Shown here one piece after another: positions 59,654 through 63,556 of a stretch of 64,000 bases of DNA. The DNA lies in IMG/VR virus record IMGVR_UViG_3300021978_000001, positions 64,001-128,000 of that record. One strand, 5' to 3'. Under the pieces are notes generated by a model, which saw only the letters and a list, made by a program, of their open reading frames with translations, ran no database searches and was not told the origin of the DNA. The stretch comes from a virus. Its lineage: Duplodnaviria > Caudoviricetes. The position numbers were made by a program, and so were the translations under genes. The stretch's first letter is position 1, and every line of letters starts with the position of its first letter.

Positions 59654-59738
59654 AGAAGTGAGGGTGGTCAAGGTGGTGCATATGGGGGTCCTTGTTTGCT
59701 ATAAGATAACCCATGTGCGGCATACCACCCCCACTTCT
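59654..59738 (-). ncRNA. Y/YrlA-like family RNA, short form lacking the tRNA module (unit A)
   Basis: 14-bp terminal stem, GG-TATG/CTTG-ACC internal loop, GGGTTATC motif. Confidence 0.6.
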
Positions 59739-59762
59739 GACATCTTCCTGGGAAGAAGATAG

Positions 59763-59835
59763 TGGAGCCAGGGGGTCTCGAACCCCCGACCTCGACGCTG
59801 CCAGCGTCGCGCTCTCCCAACTGAGCTATGGCCCC
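59763..59835 (-). tRNA. tRNA-Ala(GGC)
   Basis: Canonical cloverleaf; loop CTGGCAG. Confidence 0.95.
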
Positions 59836-59855
59836 GTTCGTACTATGAACGCCCC

Positions 59856-60218
59856 TCAACCGAGGGTCATTTCCCCATCACAGAGTTCGTCGATCAGCGC
59901 ATCGAGTTCCAGGGGGACTTTGCCCTCATAGAACTCGATGCGCCTTTCCTGACCGACAGCATCTCTCCACACCACCTGGTATCTCATACCATCACAGATA
60001 GAGAAACCAGGTGGAATCGGAATCTTGGGGTCGATAGGTGGAGGAAGGGTGAGAGTTTCGAGGCCCTCACCCTGGTCCAATATACCTTCCAACCGTTCAA
60101 GCATCTGGAGAGATGCAGGAGAGAGGTTCGTCTTGAGCGAAGAAAAGGTCTGCTTCAAGAGAGGAAACAACCCGCCTTCGCGGATGTACTGCACTTGAAG
60201 ATGCTTGTCTTTGCTCAT
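59856..60218 (-). CDS. Emfourin-like (M4 protease inhibitor-like) protein
   Basis: YIREGG...L..IL...D.MRY.V......I.F.E...P.EL..LIDEL pattern recalled for emfourins. Confidence 0.5.
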   Translation of the reverse strand: MSKDKHLQVQYIREGGLFPLLKQTFSSLKTNLSPASLQMLERLEGILDQGEGLETLTLPPPIDPKIPIPPGFSICDGMRYQVVWRDAVGQERRIEFYEGKVPLELDALIDELCDGEMTLG

Positions 60219-60240
60219 CAGTTGAACCTCGCTATGTAAA

Positions 60241-60379
60241 TCTGAGCCGAACAAGGTGTGGATCTGGGGGTTTAGCGTGCTACCATTACACTACCCTGGG
60301 GGTTAACCCAGGGCCGGGACTCGAACCCGGACCGCCTGATTTGCATTCAGATAACCCATCTCCGGCATCTCGGCTCAGA
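60241..60379 (-). ncRNA. YrlA-like RNA with permuted tRNA module (unit B)
   Basis: T arm CCGGG-TTCGAGT-CCCGG, then CCCTGGG-ttaacc-CCCAGGG, then D arm; 10-bp terminal stem. Confidence 0.75.
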
Positions 60380-60409
60380 ACTGTGCTCTCTCTTGTTACG
60401 AGAGAAGAT

Positions 60410-60750
60410 CAAAGGTGTGTCCACCAAGGCTGCACCCGAGTAAGGGTATATAGGTGGCATCGTTGTGTGGCCGCCGTCTACGCGCCAACTCGTGGCCTAT
60501 CGCCGTGGAGAAGGTTCGCGCACCGGGCTGGCGGGCGCCCTCATGATCGAGATTGCTCTCGACCTTAGCCTTGAGCCTTCGTGGGGAAGGGACTCTCAAG
60601 GGAGGGTGAGCTTGGCCTGACAGGTGTAACCTCGATAGGAGACTACCCCGTTTCGCTAGACCCCTCACGGGGATTCACTACCTTCGGACCGTTATTGGGA
60701 TAACCCACCTACGGCAGCTCAGGCACAGCTCTTGATGAACACACCTTTGG
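60410..60750 (-). ncRNA. Large structured RNA of unknown family containing unit C (60608-60731)
   Basis: About 19-bp long-range closing stem, GNRA-capped hairpins, no credible ORF. Confidence 0.55.
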
Positions 60751-60892
60751 AGACCTCGGAGCTTCCGAGCGCGCACCACCCCGCTAAAGATAAAGCGGCT
60801 CGGTGCTCCGAGATCCCAAAGAAAAGTCACGGTCAAAGTGATGTATATGGAATATTCTATCTCCGATAATCCATACACGGCATACCGTAACA

Positions 60893-60973
60893 AGCGAGCG
60901 ACGGGACTCGAACCCGCATGCGTTAAAGCGACAGCTTGGAAGGCTGTTGTCCGACCAGTTGGACCTCACTCGC
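60893..60973 (-). tRNA. tRNA-Gly(TCC) with an enlarged variable arm
   Basis: Loop CTTCCAA, G1C2G3/U73, 13-nt variable region. Confidence 0.8.
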
Positions 60974-61172
60974 GCATACTCGTCTCTCCGAGCTGTCACC
61001 CGGTCTGTCCCAGGTTCGTCATGCGTCACACTCTCGGGCCGCATCGCCGCACGAGGGGATCTTCAGATCGCGTGACCCCTCGTGAATCACATGCGACCTC
61101 CGGCGTCTGGTCTCGCCGGGCCACGGGATTGTGCACGCGCATCTGCGCGGATGGAATCCTCGGGCGTCAGGT

Positions 61173-61315
61173 ATTGCGTGGTCAAACGGAGCGTAACAGG
61201 AGTGTTGACTCGTGCTCTGCCGGTTGAGCTAGAAGTGCCACTCGTCATGACACAACCCGGGACTCGAACCCGGAACCACAAGTTTGGATAACCCTATCAC
61301 TGCATACCACGCAAT
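61173..61315 (-). ncRNA. YrlA-like RNA with permuted tRNA module (unit D)
   Basis: 9-bp terminal stem with GG-TATG/TTG-ACC; T arm precedes an imperfect acceptor stem and D arm. Confidence 0.7.
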
Positions 61316-61437
61316 CATGGTCCTTCTCCCTAAGATCTCCCTGAGAAGAAGGTTTGGGTTGGATGAACCTCTCACTGACACCTTGATCGACCGAAATTGA
61401 CGACAACGACAGACAAGAGGATGAGAGGTTCATCCAG

Positions 61438-61512
61438 CGACTCCTACGGGATTTGAACCCGTGGTCTCCTGCGTGACAGGCAGGCGTCCACTCCAGACTG
61501 GACCGAGGAGCC
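61438..61512 (-). tRNA. tRNA-Asp(GTC)
   Basis: Loop CTGTCAC; G73. Confidence 0.95.
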
Positions 61513-61589
61513 GAAAGTGCTCTATCCGAGCGCTTTTGTATGATACCATGGAAACCTTATCCTGGAAACCAAGGTAGCGTCAAGTACCA

Positions 61590-61661
61590 ATCCGGGAGCA
61601 GGGCTCGAACCTGCATTGCGAGGATCAAAACCTCGTGTCCTGCCAATTAGACGATCCCGGA
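61590..61661 (-). tRNA. tRNA-Gln(TTG)
   Basis: U1:A72; loop TTTTGAT. Confidence 0.9.
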
Positions 61662-61720
61662 GTAATCGTGGCCCAAGCACTGCTTCGTGCAGTGAACATC
61701 CCGAGTGCTTGAGCCACGAT

Positions 61721-61924
61721 TCACGCATGTTCGGTGCCCGTGGCTTCCTCGATAAACGAGGAAATCACATGACGTTGAACCACCGCGTGGGGTGTCGCTT
61801 GTGACTGTGACCACACCTCGATAGTGCTCATCGAAACCTCGAAACGATCGGCAAGCTCTCTGCTGCTATGCAATTCTCGCAAGTAATGCAAGGCGAACAG
61901 GAAGAGTTTATGCGTCTCATTCAT
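61721..61924 (-). CDS. Small HTH protein
   Basis: SSRELADRFEVSMSTIEVW. Confidence 0.7.
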   Translation of the reverse strand: MNETHKLFLFALHYLRELHSSRELADRFEVSMSTIEVWSQSQATPHAVVQRHVISSFIEEATGTEHA

Positions 61925-62007
61925 CGAAACCTCGATCAGTGTCGTGTCGAGTGCAGGGTCCGAAGTCAGCGAACACCGCTTCTCCCTGCACGAGCAGGGA
62001 AGATAGA

Positions 62008-62152
62008 GTACACCGGATAAGGGATGAGAGTGGATGTTTTTGGCGCTTTACCACTAAGCTACACAGCCGTAAACGATGGCTGTGGGTTGGAATCGAACCA
62101 ACCGATCTCCCCGTTAAGAGCGGATAACCCACGGCTCTTCAGCCCGATGTAC
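62008..62152 (-). ncRNA. YrlA-like RNA with permuted tRNA module (unit E)
   Basis: T arm GTTGG-TTCGATT-CCAAC, CACAGCC-9 nt-GGCTGTG, D arm; 9-bp terminal stem. Confidence 0.75.
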
Positions 62153-62154
62153 AG

Positions 62155-62227
62155 TACCACAGGTGGGGGTCGAACCCACAACATCCTGGTTTTGAACCAA
62201 GCGCCTCTTCCATTGGGCCACTGTGGC
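62155..62227 (-). tRNA. tRNA-Leu(CAA) lacking the long variable arm
   Basis: Loop TTCAAAA; 5-nt variable loop; A73. Confidence 0.8.
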
Positions 62228-62234
62228 AGGCGGA

Positions 62235-62315
62235 GTTGCATACGTCAAGGGTTTTCTGCTGGGCAGGATCGCCACCGTCGTGGATGGATCTGCCTGACCT
62301 TTACACCTATGCAAC
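62235..62315 (-). ncRNA. Hairpin RNA, possible short member of the Y-like family (unit G)
   Basis: GTTGCATA/TATGCAAC terminal stem; AAAACCCTTGAC tail motif. Confidence 0.4.
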
Positions 62316-62421
62316 AACCCTGGAGTTCCCATCTCTCCGGTCTCTACGCGTCGTCACGCACCCTGTAGGAGCTACCCCACAAGATACAGCCTCGTGACGT
62401 GTGAGGCTACGCGCTGGGAAA

Positions 62422-62494
62422 TCGACATGCCAGGACTCGAACCTGGACCACCTCTTTCGTAGAGAGGCACTCTATCCAATTAAGTTACACGTCG
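62422..62494 (-). tRNA. tRNA-Arg(ACG)
   Basis: Loop CTACGAA. Confidence 0.93.
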
Positions 62495-62609
62495 AGAATG
62501 CCTCCCAGTGTACGGTGTCGAGCACACCGAGAGGACTTTTCACTGTGGTCGTCGAGCGATCTCAGTGAGAGCGTTATGCCACACCTTACGAGAAGGTGTC
62601 AAGACAATT

Positions 62610-62870
62610 TCATTTTTTCTTGAGGTCAGCGTCGGTGAGGCTCTTTTTCTGCCAAGCCGCCTCTTCCTCTTTAGCGCATCGCTTGCTGTACCGCCACGCG
62701 ATGGCATGGTCAATACGATCAAGCTCCTCACGCTCCTCGACGGTCAAGGTGCCTTGTGCTTCGAGCGCACGTTGTTGAGCTTTGAGCCTTTCGATGTGTT
62801 TCCGATCTGCATCTTCATCAGTCATGCTTACCTCGTCTGAAAAGTACCCTGCCGTAAGTTCGCTTCTCAT
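62610..62870 (-). CDS. Hypothetical protein
   Basis: GAGGG RBS; 86 aa. Confidence 0.6.
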   Translation of the reverse strand: MRSELTAGYFSDEVSMTDEDADRKHIERLKAQQRALEAQGTLTVEEREELDRIDHAIAWRYSKRCAKEEEAAWQKKSLTDADLKKK

Positions 62871-62944
62871 GCGCCCTCGTCTTAAAGGCGCACAGAATAC
62901 CCCTCCCCAGAGGTAAAGTTTAGAATGATGAACCCGACAGGGTA

Positions 62945-63017
62945 TAGCGGGTGAGGGAATCGAACCCCCAACTGTAGGTCATGAGCCTACCGAGATATAC
63001 CGTTTCTCCAACCCGCA
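62945..63017 (-). tRNA. tRNA-Met(CAT), initiator-like
   Basis: 1:72 mismatch; loop CTCATGA. Confidence 0.85.
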
Positions 63018-63051
63018 ACAAATGAGTGTGCTGTTCCTGTGCCCCGGCGCC

Positions 63052-63195
63052 GGACCATCCCCGCATACGCGGGGAACACGCTCCACAACACACTCGGGCG
63101 CCTGGGTATACCCACGACGCAGATCCGCTTGACGGTGGAGCGACAGGCGGAAGTGGTACGGCAAGGCGAACCATCCCCGCGCACGCGGGGAACAT
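63052..63195 (-). CRISPR. Two type I-E repeats (63168-63195, 63052-63079) flanking an 88-nt insert
   Basis: 63052 copy is near-identical to the array repeats; followed by 34 nt and then tRNA-Met. Confidence 0.88.
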
Positions 63196-63235
63196 GGACC
63201 TCACGGATGCATCGACGCGAGATCTCACCATACCA

Positions 63236-63309
63236 TAGCTGGACGCGGACTCGAACCGCGAACCTCAGCCTTATCAAGACTGCGCTCTAACCTGTTGAGC
63301 TATCCAGCT
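63236..63309 (-). tRNA. tRNA-Ile(GAT)
   Basis: Loop TTGATAA. Confidence 0.93.
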
Positions 63310-63314
63310 TCAAG

Positions 63315-63403
63315 TGCTTGCCCCTGGACTCGCACCAGGATCTCTCGCGTGATGGCGAGCAGGTTACATACGGCTACCATGGATACCTTGACCCCAGACA
63401 AGC
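63315..63403 (-). tRNA. Atypical/pseudo tRNA-Tyr(GTA)
   Basis: 7-bp acceptor, D stem, long variable arm; C33 and T loop TGCGAGT are non-canonical. Confidence 0.5.
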
Positions 63404-63407
63404 AAGT

Positions 63408-63554
63408 GTACATGAATCGAACAAGGTAGTGAGCAAGGGGTTTTTACGAGTGCTACCGTTACACCACATGTCCGGGTGGACATGCTGGGACTCGAACCCA
63501 GACCACGCGCTCCGCTGGCGATAACCCTTATCTCGGTCATCTCGATTCATGTAC
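63408..63554 (-). ncRNA. YrlA-like RNA with permuted tRNA module (unit F)
   Basis: 13-bp terminal stem; T arm CTGGG-TTCGAGT-CCCAG, CATGTCC-accc-GGACATG, D arm. Confidence 0.8.
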
Positions 63555-63556
63555 AG

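What the first reader, a model, noticed from the sequence alone, without database searches (positions are those of the whole stretch)
60400..60830. Large GNRA-rich structured RNA of unknown class containing a Y-RNA-like 16-mer
Seen: a long-range stem joins 60410-60429 with 60731-60750 and encloses 341 nt. Inside are hairpins TCGAGA-GCAA-TCTCGA and CCCC-GTGA-GGGG and the Y-like unit C; a further stem-loop domain spans about 60745-60825. No RNase P, tmRNA or group II domain V signature was recognised. The minus strand at 60675-60690 reads GGTCCGAAGGTAGTGA, which from memory matches the 5' Ro-binding region of human Y1 RNA; this recollection needs verification.
Basis: partly seen in the sequence, partly recalled or inferred. 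Interest (0 to 1): 0.6.

Follow-up and report, generated by a model that had tools for sequence, protein, structure and literature searches.

The report
Phage Y-type RNA carrying 23S mimic
A 340-base non-coding RNA in the tRNA cluster of a 437-kb phage has the docking stem used by partner RNAs of the ring protein Ro60, but where such RNAs normally carry a tRNA look-alike it carries a rearranged miniature of a ribosomal RNA junction from the contact face between the two ribosomal subunits.

Summary
On the minus strand, 60749-60410 folds far better than shuffles (z -8) into a 31-bp closing stem around about 250 nt. The named hairpins exist, and the 16-mer equals the 5' end of human and mouse Y1 RNA.

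The class is not unknown. The RNA shares a closing "handle" (UGMMG-N5-GGRUUAUC plus a matching 3' loop) with six neighbouring units: four YrlA-like tRNA mimics and two bare stems. The phage also encodes a Ro60/TROVE protein.

The cargo holds three blocks that match bacterial 23S rRNA domain IV in circularly permuted order: E. coli 1830-1843, 1897-1909 and 1916-1937 (H67 5' strand, H68 base, H69 base, strand leading to H70). Two covariance models built from real 23S segments each find this RNA as their single best hit in the window. A third model (H65-H66) does not hit it. The Y1-like 16-mer lies inside the 23S-like block.

I read it as a long Y-type RNA displaying a 23S junction mimic, probably tethering phage Ro60 to a partner of that rRNA site, or acting as a decoy for it.

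No diverged homologue was found, so there is no covariation for the RNA itself, and expression could not be tested.

Earlier notes of this scan report similar 23S mimics in Y-like RNAs of other phages. I found no publication.

The parts
60410..60749 (-). Whole RNA unit (about 340 nt): handle plus 247-nt cargo
   Evidence: Fold z -7.95; helices listed; bounded by spacer hairpins 60817-60750 and 60406-60386
60718..60749 (-). Outer stem, 5' strand (pairs with 60440-60410)
   Evidence: 19 + 12 bp with one mismatch
60410..60440 (-). Outer stem, 3' strand
60705..60717 (-). Handle 5' side: loop CUGCC (60717-60713) and stem 2 GUAGGUGG (60712-60705), running into GGGUUAUC
   Evidence: Motif UG[CA][CA]G-N4-8-GGRUUAU found six times on this strand; arms compared
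60441..60457 (-). Handle 3' side: stem 2 CCACCUAU (60457-60450) and loop AUACCCUUA (60449-60441)
   Evidence: the loop variant is shared with unit 62008 (AUCCCUUAU)
60691..60704 (-). Hairpin GUUAU-CCCA-AUAAC formed by the handle's GUUAU and the start of the cargo
   Evidence: an analogous hairpin GUUAU-CUUA-AUAGC occurs in the long unit of a second Ro60 phage
60674..60695 (-). Block c: 20/22 identical to E. coli 23S 1916-1937 (H69 3' strand, C-NAA-G turn, strand leading to H70); contains the Y1 16-mer at 60690-60675
   Evidence: E 5e-4; model R1 23.9 bits, E 8e-4, next hit 11.5 bits; only hit in the 437-kb genome; Y1 identity
60661..60672 (-). CCCC-GUGA-GGGG hairpin, at the position of H71 in the 23S order (sequence not alike)
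   Evidence: position by my alignment to the Rfam structure line; R1 treats H71 as deleted
60614..60631 (-). Strand complementary to block c; forms the Y1-like inner stem in the minimum-energy fold
   Evidence: pair probabilities 0.85-0.91
60535..60611 (-). Domain 2: three-way junction with a GCAA-capped hairpin (60564-60545); no rRNA counterpart detected
   Evidence: model R3 (23S H65-H66) gives no hit here
60520..60533 (-). Block a: 13/14 identical to 23S 1830-1843 (H67 5' strand, start of H68)
   Evidence: model R2
60473..60528 (-). H68-like hairpin (56 nt against 71 in E. coli); basal pairs, bulges and the AA at the place of A1847/A1848 are kept
   Evidence: two pairs flipped relative to all 17 real sequences but still paired
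60469..60481 (-). Block b: 12/13 identical to 23S 1897-1909 (H68 3' strand, first 4 nt of H69)
   Evidence: R2 hit 60537-60467, 17.7 bits, E 0.027, next hit 11 bits
60750..60817 (-). Upstream spacer hairpin, not part of the RNA
   Evidence: Four pairs changed on both sides in sister strain L145 and still paired

Best explanation
The stretch 60749-60410 (minus strand) is a non-coding RNA of about 340 nt, co-transcribed with the phage's tRNA array and cut out by processing (inferred). Its paired ends and two internal loops form the same handle as six neighbouring Y/YrlA-like RNAs. This handle is the probable docking site for the phage's own Ro60 (TROVE) ring protein (inferred by analogy with Y RNAs; binding not shown). 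In place of the tRNA-like module of YrlA, its cargo carries a circularly permuted miniature of the 23S rRNA domain IV junction: the H67 5' strand, the base of H68, the base of H69, and the universally conserved strand leading to H70. H69's loop end is replaced by the handle, and H67 is capped by an unrelated three-way junction (sequence match shown; the fold is inferred). In the ribosome these segments lie at the centre of the subunit interface (bridges B2b, B2c, B7a; my knowledge). I propose that the RNA tethers Ro60, and perhaps PNPase as in known Ro60-Y RNA-PNPase complexes, to whatever recognises this rRNA junction. That could be the 30S platform, an rRNA-modifying or assembly factor, or a ribosome-targeting toxin. 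Alternatively it titrates that factor as a decoy. The Y1-like 16-mer is the H69/H70 strand of the mimic.
For: - Strand and structure: z -7.95 on the minus strand against -2.95 on the plus strand.
- Handle: the motif UG[CA][CA]G-N-GGRUUAU occurs six times on this strand, always at the 5' arm of a closed unit. The 3' loops match too: five units read AUG.../...YUUG, and this unit and 62008 read CUG.../...CCCUUA.
- Neighbours: they score as YrlA (32.3 and 25.3 bits) and as a nematode sbRNA family (34.2 bits) below threshold.
- Ro60: a TROVE ORF of 583 aa, E 2.8e-39, lies in the same genome.
- 23S blocks: 20/22, 13/14 and 12/13 identities sit in permuted colinear order.
- Models from real 23S: R1 gives 23.9 bits, E 8e-4, and is the only hit in 437 kb. 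R2 gives 17.7 bits, E 0.027, with its top hit 115 nt away in the same RNA. The negative control R3 gives nothing.
- H68 base: the basal pairs are kept, with two flipped pairs.
- Fold energy: a four-way-junction fold of 23S topology costs only 4.8 kcal/mol more than the minimum.
- Other phages: other phage contigs carry smaller RNAs with the same permutation, H69 3' strand first and 5' strand last (R1 42-49 bits).
- Precedent: phage Ro60 binding Y-like RNAs and host PNPase is published (PMC12135203). tRNA mimicry by YrlA is published (PMC4201824).
Against: - No diverged homologue of this RNA was found, so no covariation supports either fold of the cargo. The one sister strain is identical here, as is its flanking ORF.
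- The nearest-neighbour minimum fold pairs the 23S-like strand with an internal complement (probability about 0.9). A strictly 23S-like fold is 15 kcal/mol worse.
- The H70-H71 part is poorly kept, and one H67 pair would be G-G.
- The mimic differs from 23S at two positions invariant in my 13 real sequences (U1926, C1934).
- The Rfam LSU model gives no hit at E 10.
- The Ro60 gene lies about 170 kb away, not adjacent.
- The handle lacks the published GNCGAAN0-1G motif.
- Expression, RNA ends and Ro60 binding are untested.
Confidence: 0.55

Rival explanations
1. It is a long Y RNA with two Ro60 sites. The inner stem (GGUCCGAAGGUAGUGA paired with UUACACCUGUCAGGCC) is a second Ro60-binding helix of canonical vertebrate type, and the 23S resemblance of that strand is incidental.
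For: 16/16 identity to Y1, including the GGUCCGA contacted by Ro60. The stem is part of the minimum-energy fold with pair probability about 0.9. The C opposite A sits at the place of Y RNA's bulged C. Phage Yrl1 with two CGAA hairpins binds Ro60 in more than one stoichiometry.
Against: It does not explain blocks a and b or the R2 hit. The six sister units lack this motif yet share the outer handle. Given 14/16 identity between Y1 and 23S, the two extra matches have about a 1 in 9 chance. Rfam Y_RNA gives no hit.
Confidence: 0.15
2. It is a large structured RNA whose function does not involve Ro60 (ribozyme, scaffold or cage-forming RNA like ROOL/GOLLD, which also sit by phage tRNAs). The shared closing stem would be only a processing signal of the array.
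For: Size, strong fold, GNRA loops and position among tRNAs. Domain 2 and the distal H68-like part are unexplained. The Ro60 gene is 170 kb away.
Against: No Rfam hit to GOLLD, ROOL, OLE, RNase P, introns or ribozymes even at E 10. The handle resembles YrlA and Y RNA arms.
Confidence: 0.12
3. It is an RNA circularisation or splicing cassette: the handle is cut and the cargo ligated into a circle, which would undo the permutation.
For: The cargo is permuted relative to 23S, as the tRNA-like cargos are relative to tRNA. This reading was proposed by another first-stage note (e1-5379109).
Against: Permuted tRNA-like domains are the normal linear form of YrlA (PMC4201824). Joining the cargo ends would put the handle-side ends together, not restore H69's loop. 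No ligase or junction evidence was obtained, and read mapping was unavailable.
Confidence: 0.05
4. It is a functionless relic of captured host rRNA, or a protein-coding stretch (ORF 60668-60396, 90 aa).
For: An open frame exists on the same strand. rRNA fragments can be picked up by recombination.
Against: Simple capture does not give a permuted order framed exactly by a handle with paired helices kept. The ORFs have no Pfam match. The fold z is -8. None of 120 genomic matches to the H68 variant lay in a 23S gene.
Confidence: 0.04

Closest known systems
YrlA / bacterial and phage Y RNAs bound by Rsr/Ro60 (Rfam RF02553; Chen et al. 2014, PMC4201824)
   Same: Paired 5'/3' ends with an internal-loop handle closing a displayed mimic domain. 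Encoded in a genome with a TROVE/Ro60 gene, several paralogues per genome. The neighbouring units are tRNA-like with permuted order, as in YrlA.
   Different: The cargo is not tRNA-like but 23S-like. It is about 340 nt against 80-130 nt. There is no RF02553 hit for this unit, the handle lacks GNCGAAN0-1G, and it lies in the tRNA array 170 kb from the Ro60 gene.
Thermus phage phiLo Ro60 with Yrl1/Yrl2 (PMC12135203)
   Same: A phage-encoded Ro60 with phage-encoded Y-like RNAs. Shown there: Ro60-Yrl-PNPase complexes that damp host PNPase.
   Different: Yrl1 and Yrl2 are small stem-bulge-stem RNAs next to the Ro60 gene, and no rRNA-like module is described.
Metazoan Y RNAs (human Y1, Y4)
   Same: 16/16 identity of 60690-60675 to the Y1 5' strand. 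The handle's GUGGGUUAUC equals the Y4 sequence in the RNY4 primer.
   Different: No overall homology detectable (no Rfam Y_RNA hit). The Y1-like strand lies inside the cargo, not at the RNA's ends.
23S rRNA domain IV junction H67-H68-H69-H70 (E. coli 1830-1975; Rfam RF02541)
   Same: Three sequence blocks, H68 basal pairing with bulges, the 4-bp base of H69, and the C-NAA-G turn.
   Different: Circularly permuted; H69 loop absent; H71 and the 1938-1944 strand not kept; H68 shortened; changes at U1926 and C1934, invariant in my 13 real sequences; H64-H66 not detectable.
Earlier notes of this scan on other phages (e1-5378743, e1-5402321, e1-5406828)
   Same: Y-like or Ro60-associated phage RNAs reported to carry 23S H69-70 or other rRNA-site mimics.
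   Different: Different genomes and handles. These are unchecked AI notes whose sequences I could not compare. This copy also includes the H67/H68 part.

Membership tests
YrlA (RF02553) | Match to the family covariance model at gathering score (69 bits) | tested here: not met
   No hit over 60410-60749 at E 10. Neighbouring units reach 32.3 and 25.3 bits only.
YrlA (RF02553) | tRNA-like domain (T arm, D arm, acceptor-like stem) | tested here: not met
   No tRNA or T-arm signal in the cargo.
YrlA / Y RNA | Ro60/TROVE protein encoded by the same genome, usually within about 2 kb | tested here: inconclusive
   A TROVE ORF is present (132.6 bits), but at genome position 295 kb against 124 kb for the RNA.
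YrlA / Y RNA | GNCGAAN0-1G (bacteria) or GGUCCGA (vertebrates) in the 5' strand of the terminal stem | tested here: inconclusive
   The terminal handle reads ...CCUGAGCUGCCG, with no such motif. GGUCCGAAG occurs, but 60 nt inside the RNA.
Y RNA (general) | Length 80-130 nt (PMC4201824) | tested here: not met
   About 340 nt.
Y RNA (general) | Bound and stabilised by Ro60 | not testable with these tools
This phage's seven-member Y-like handle family | Outer stem, 5' loop [A/C]UGMM, stem 2 ending in GGRUUAUC, 3' stem 2, 9-10-nt 3' loop ending YUUG or CUUA | tested here: met
   This unit has the CUG/CCCUUA subtype, shared with unit 62008.
23S rRNA domain IV mimic (resemblance, not membership) | Profile match to real 23S 1914-1982 and 1826-1912 | tested here: met
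   R1 23.9 bits, E 8e-4. R2 17.7 bits, E 0.027. Both are top hits of the window and both lie in this RNA.
23S rRNA domain IV mimic | H65-H66 (1773-1829) also represented | tested here: not met
   R3 gives no hit in the RNA at E 10.
23S rRNA domain IV mimic | Adopts the 23S four-way-junction fold | tested here: inconclusive
   Junction fold -157.9 against minimum -162.7 kcal/mol; strict fold -147.8. No covariation is available.
Known large or catalytic RNAs (GOLLD, ROOL, OLE, RNase P, tmRNA, SRP, 6S, group I/II introns) | Rfam model match | tested here: not met
   (E up to 10); ARAGORN.

The most novel reading that the evidence does not exclude
The Ro60-binding strand of Y RNAs in general is a copy of the universally conserved 23S/28S strand at the foot of helix 69. 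GGUCCUAAGGUAGCGA in rRNA, GGUCCGAAGGUAGUGA in human Y1 and this phage RNA are then one and the same motif. On this reading Y RNAs began as rRNA mimics that occupy Ro60's rRNA-recognition surface, and this phage RNA still shows the surrounding junction.
Probability: 0.08. Interest if true: 0.85.

Novelty: new variant of a known kind. Interest (0 to 1): 0.68.

Why it matters
Y RNAs are known to display tRNA look-alikes, and what those modules recruit is still an open question. A Y-type RNA that instead displays the 23S junction forming the central inter-subunit bridges would extend the principle from tRNA to rRNA. It would also point to the ribosome, or to enzymes acting on it, as a target of phage Ro60 particles. 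That gives a concrete bait for finding the partner. It also raises a testable question: is the 14/16 likeness between the Ro60-binding strand of animal Y RNAs and this universal rRNA strand meaningful?

Tried and rejected
- **5S rRNA mimic.** A 12-nt likeness (CCGAAGGUAGUG against CCGAUGGUAGUG) scores no better than shuffles, and Rfam 5S gives no hit.
- **CRISPR repeat copy.** The CCCC-GUGA-GGGG hairpin is not the phage's type I-E repeat, which has a 7-bp stem.
- **Exact 16-mer in viral contigs.** Two chance hits, both in coding DNA.
- **Handle pattern in viral contigs.** 119 or more hits, none with cargo similarity.
- **Other pattern scans.**
  - Cargo hairpin pattern: 0 hits.
  - Neighbouring tRNA-Gly pattern: two unrelated phages.
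  - Handle plus GGUCCGAAGG in metagenomes: 0 hits.
  - Permuted c...a pattern in metagenomes: four hits, all real 23S genes with an insertion after ...AAGGTAG.
  - Shortened-H68 pattern in viral contigs: one chance hit.
  - This RNA's H68 variant in bacterial genomes: 120 hits, none in a 23S gene.
- **Neighbouring ORF as a way to relatives.** Only identical proteins turned up. One contig is 100% identical and one sister is 93% identical overall but identical over the RNA.
- **Second Ro60 phage (G001).** It has its own handle and a long unit of about 261 nt, but no sequence or R1/R2 match.
- **Domain 2 as H65-H66.** Rejected by R3.
- **GenBank phages.** No match.

Full report
**Setting.** The window is bases 64001-128000 of a 437,490-bp virus record with direct terminal repeats. 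Coordinates 59.5-63.7 kb of the window hold a minus-strand array of tRNA genes. The finding lies between tRNA-Gly(UCC) (60893-60973) and a YrlA-like unit (60242-60375).

**Observation.**
- On the minus strand, 60895-60380 folds to -234.8 kcal/mol, z = -7.95 against shuffles. The plus strand gives -198.8, z = -2.95. The RNA therefore runs with the tRNAs.
- The closing helix is 19 + 12 bp: 60749-60718 with 60440-60410.
- Both named hairpins are present.
- The 16-mer at 60690-60675 is contained letter for letter in the published RNY1 primer of human and mouse (PMC13382184).
- The "domain" at 60745-60825 is a separate spacer hairpin, 60817-60750. In a sister strain four of its pairs are changed on both sides and remain paired.
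- Rfam gives nothing over the RNA, even at E = 10 on short slices. ARAGORN finds no tmRNA. The ORFs across it have no Pfam match.
- No promoter-like or terminator-like site flanks it. This fits processing out of the array transcript.

**The handle.**
- The motif UG[CA][CA]G, 4-8 nt, GGRUUAU occurs six times in the window, all on the minus strand. Each sits on the 5' arm of a hairpin-closed unit. A seventh unit has a variant of it.
- Folding the seven units shows one plan: outer stem, 5' loop, second stem ending in GGRUUAUC, cargo, return strand, a 3' loop of 9-10 nt, outer stem.
- Four cargos are permuted tRNA-like domains, two are almost empty, and this one is 247 nt.
- Five units read AUG.. 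in the 5' loop and ..YUUG in the 3' loop. This unit and the one at 62008 read CUG.. and ..CCCUUA.
- Rfam scores the neighbour at 60242-60375 as YrlA over the whole model (32.3 bits). It scores the bare unit at 60826-60892 as the nematode family ceN72-3_ceN74-2 (34.2 bits, E 8.6e-5). To my knowledge that family is a stem-bulge RNA, a Y RNA relative.
- The genome encodes a TROVE protein of 583 aa (132.6 bits) about 170 kb away.
- The handle's GUGGGUUAUC also occurs in human Y4 (RNY4 primer).
- I take the handle to be a Ro60 docking module. That is inference: Ro60 binding was not tested, and the published bacterial motif GNCGAAN0-1G (PMC4201824) is not in the handle.

**The cargo.** Three blocks match 23S domain IV:

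| Block | Window (minus) | E. coli 23S | Identity |
|---|---|---|---|
| c | 60695-60674 | 1916-1937 | 20/22 |
| a | 60533-60520 | 1830-1843 | 13/14 |
| b | 60481-60469 | 1897-1909 | 12/13 |

- The order in 23S is a, b, c. In this RNA it is c, a, b, with the handle joining b to c. This is a circular permutation that opens helix 69 at its loop.
- On the Rfam structure line for this region, the blocks are the H67 5' strand with the start of H68, the end of H68 with the first four bases of H69, and the H69 3' strand with the C-NAA-G turn and the strand leading to H70.
- The basal pairs of H68 are reproduced with their bulges and with AA at the place of A1847/A1848. Two pairs are flipped (C-G to G-C and G-C to C-G) relative to all 17 real sequences I aligned, and they still pair.

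**Independent test with covariance models.** I fetched 23S segments from up to 17 bacterial genomes of several phyla and built three models.
- R1 (1914-1982): the best hit in the 64-kb window is 60697-60652, minus strand, 23.9 bits, E 8e-4. The next hit scores 11.5 bits. It is the only hit in the whole 437-kb genome.
- R2 (1826-1912): the best hit is 60537-60467, minus strand, 17.7 bits, E 0.027. The next scores 11 bits. Two unrelated models thus choose the same RNA out of 128 kb of sequence.
- R3 (1773-1829, H65-H66): no hit in the RNA. Domain 2 (60611-60535) is therefore not a detectable H65-H66 copy, and not every 23S model lights up here.

**The fold is open.**
- The minimum-energy fold pairs block c with an internal complement (60631-60614). 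This gives the Y1-like stem, with pair probabilities near 0.9.
- A fold with 23S topology has the H69 base closing next to the handle, H67 closing domain 2, and H68 as a hairpin. It costs 4.8 kcal/mol more. A fold that also frees block c as in the ribosome costs 15 kcal/mol more.
- The energy model ignores junction stacking and tertiary contacts, so it cannot decide between these.

**Relatives.**
- One Logan contig is identical. Another (L145) is 93% identical over 3.4 kb but has no change in the RNA or in the adjacent ORF. It is therefore silent on selection.
- All pattern scans for diverged homologues failed (see Tried and rejected).
- The 23S motif scan did turn up smaller RNAs in other phage contigs (L147, L148, L151, L154 in two variants, and L149). 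R1 scores them 42-49 bits.
- In the L147/L148/L151/L154 group the order is the same: H69 3' strand first, then H70 and H71 (with compensating changes between variants), an H67-like hairpin, and the H69 5' strand last. L149 scores 42.4 bits, but its match decays after H71 and I did not inspect its ends.
- The same permuted junction thus recurs in phages. Those records, at most 75% complete, show no TROVE hit.

**The Y1 match.**
- Y1's 16-mer and the 23S strand differ at two positions. This RNA sides with Y1 at both.
- Given the 14/16 likeness of Y1 and 23S, that agreement has roughly a 1 in 9 chance.
- The flanking blocks a and b have no counterpart in Y1. I therefore assign the 16-mer to the 23S mimic.
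- The possibility that it also serves as a Ro60 site stays as a rival.

**Mechanism.**
- Shown: a strongly folding RNA, a handle shared with YrlA-like neighbours, a Ro60 gene in the genome, and significant permuted similarity to the H67-H70 junction.
- Inferred: Ro60 binds the handle; the cargo presents the junction surface that in 50S meets 16S h24, h27 and h45; and the particle is thereby brought to free 30S subunits or to a factor that reads this junction, or sequesters it.
- Published precedents: phage Ro60-Yrl-PNPase complexes (PMC12135203) and a human Y RNA that binds ribosomes (PMC13501136).
- I found no paper describing an rRNA mimic in a Y RNA. Earlier notes of this scan report such mimics in other phages.

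Noticed in passing
window 60750-60817 (minus) and L145: Spacer hairpin directly upstream of the RNA. In the sister strain CGGA/UCCG became GAAC/GUUC: four pairs changed on both sides and all still paired. It may be a processing signal of the array.
   Followed up: partly
window 60893-60973 against L145 (alignment columns 390-440): In the sister strain the D and anticodon region of tRNA-Gly(UCC) is replaced by a sequence resembling the phage's CRISPR repeat, while the acceptor and T arm are kept.
   Followed up: no
window 60826-60892 (minus): A bare 67-nt handle unit scores 34.2 bits (E 8.6e-5, gathering 38) against Rfam ceN72-3_ceN74-2, a nematode small RNA family that I recall as stem-bulge (Y-related) RNAs.
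   Followed up: no
window 59655-63555 (minus), seven units: There are two handle subtypes. Five units have 5' loop AUGCC/AUGCA/GAUGAC with a 3' loop ending YUUG. Two units (60408 and 62008) have CUGCC/CUGAA with a 3' loop ending CCCUUA(U). This is a possible covarying loop-loop contact.
   Followed up: partly
L147:1480-1556, L154:1429-1505 (also L148, L151), L149:3433-3497: Other phage contigs hold RNAs matching 23S 1914-1982 (R1 42-49 bits). The L147/L148/L151/L154 group (about 110 nt) is closed by pairing ACGGUCC at the 5' end with GGACCGU at the 3' end, and its H71 stem differs between the two variants in a compensating way. L149's match decays after H71 and its ends were not examined. No TROVE hit in these incomplete records.
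   Followed up: partly
L141:6506-6766 (minus), 359-kb phage G001: A second Ro60-encoding phage (Ro60 47% identical) has its own handle (ACCG-N-AUUGGUUAUC) on many units in its tRNA array, including one with about 261 nt of non-tRNA cargo. The handle's GUUAU again folds back as a hairpin. No 23S match.
   Followed up: partly
human RNY1 5' end against 23S 1921-1936: The Ro60-binding strand of Y1 (GGUCCGAAGGUAGUGA) is 14/16 identical to the universally conserved 23S strand GGUCCUAAGGUAGCGA. By my estimate this alone could be chance (E about 0.2).
   Followed up: partly
L301-L304 (metagenome contigs): Real 23S genes are interrupted right after ...ACGGTCCTAAGGTAG (E. coli about 1933) by an insertion of several hundred bases, presumably an intron.
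   Followed up: no
window 60601-60590 (minus): The 12-mer CCUUGAGAGUCC in domain 2 equals E. coli 23S 2795-2806 (E 0.11). That region is variable, so this is probably chance.
   Followed up: no
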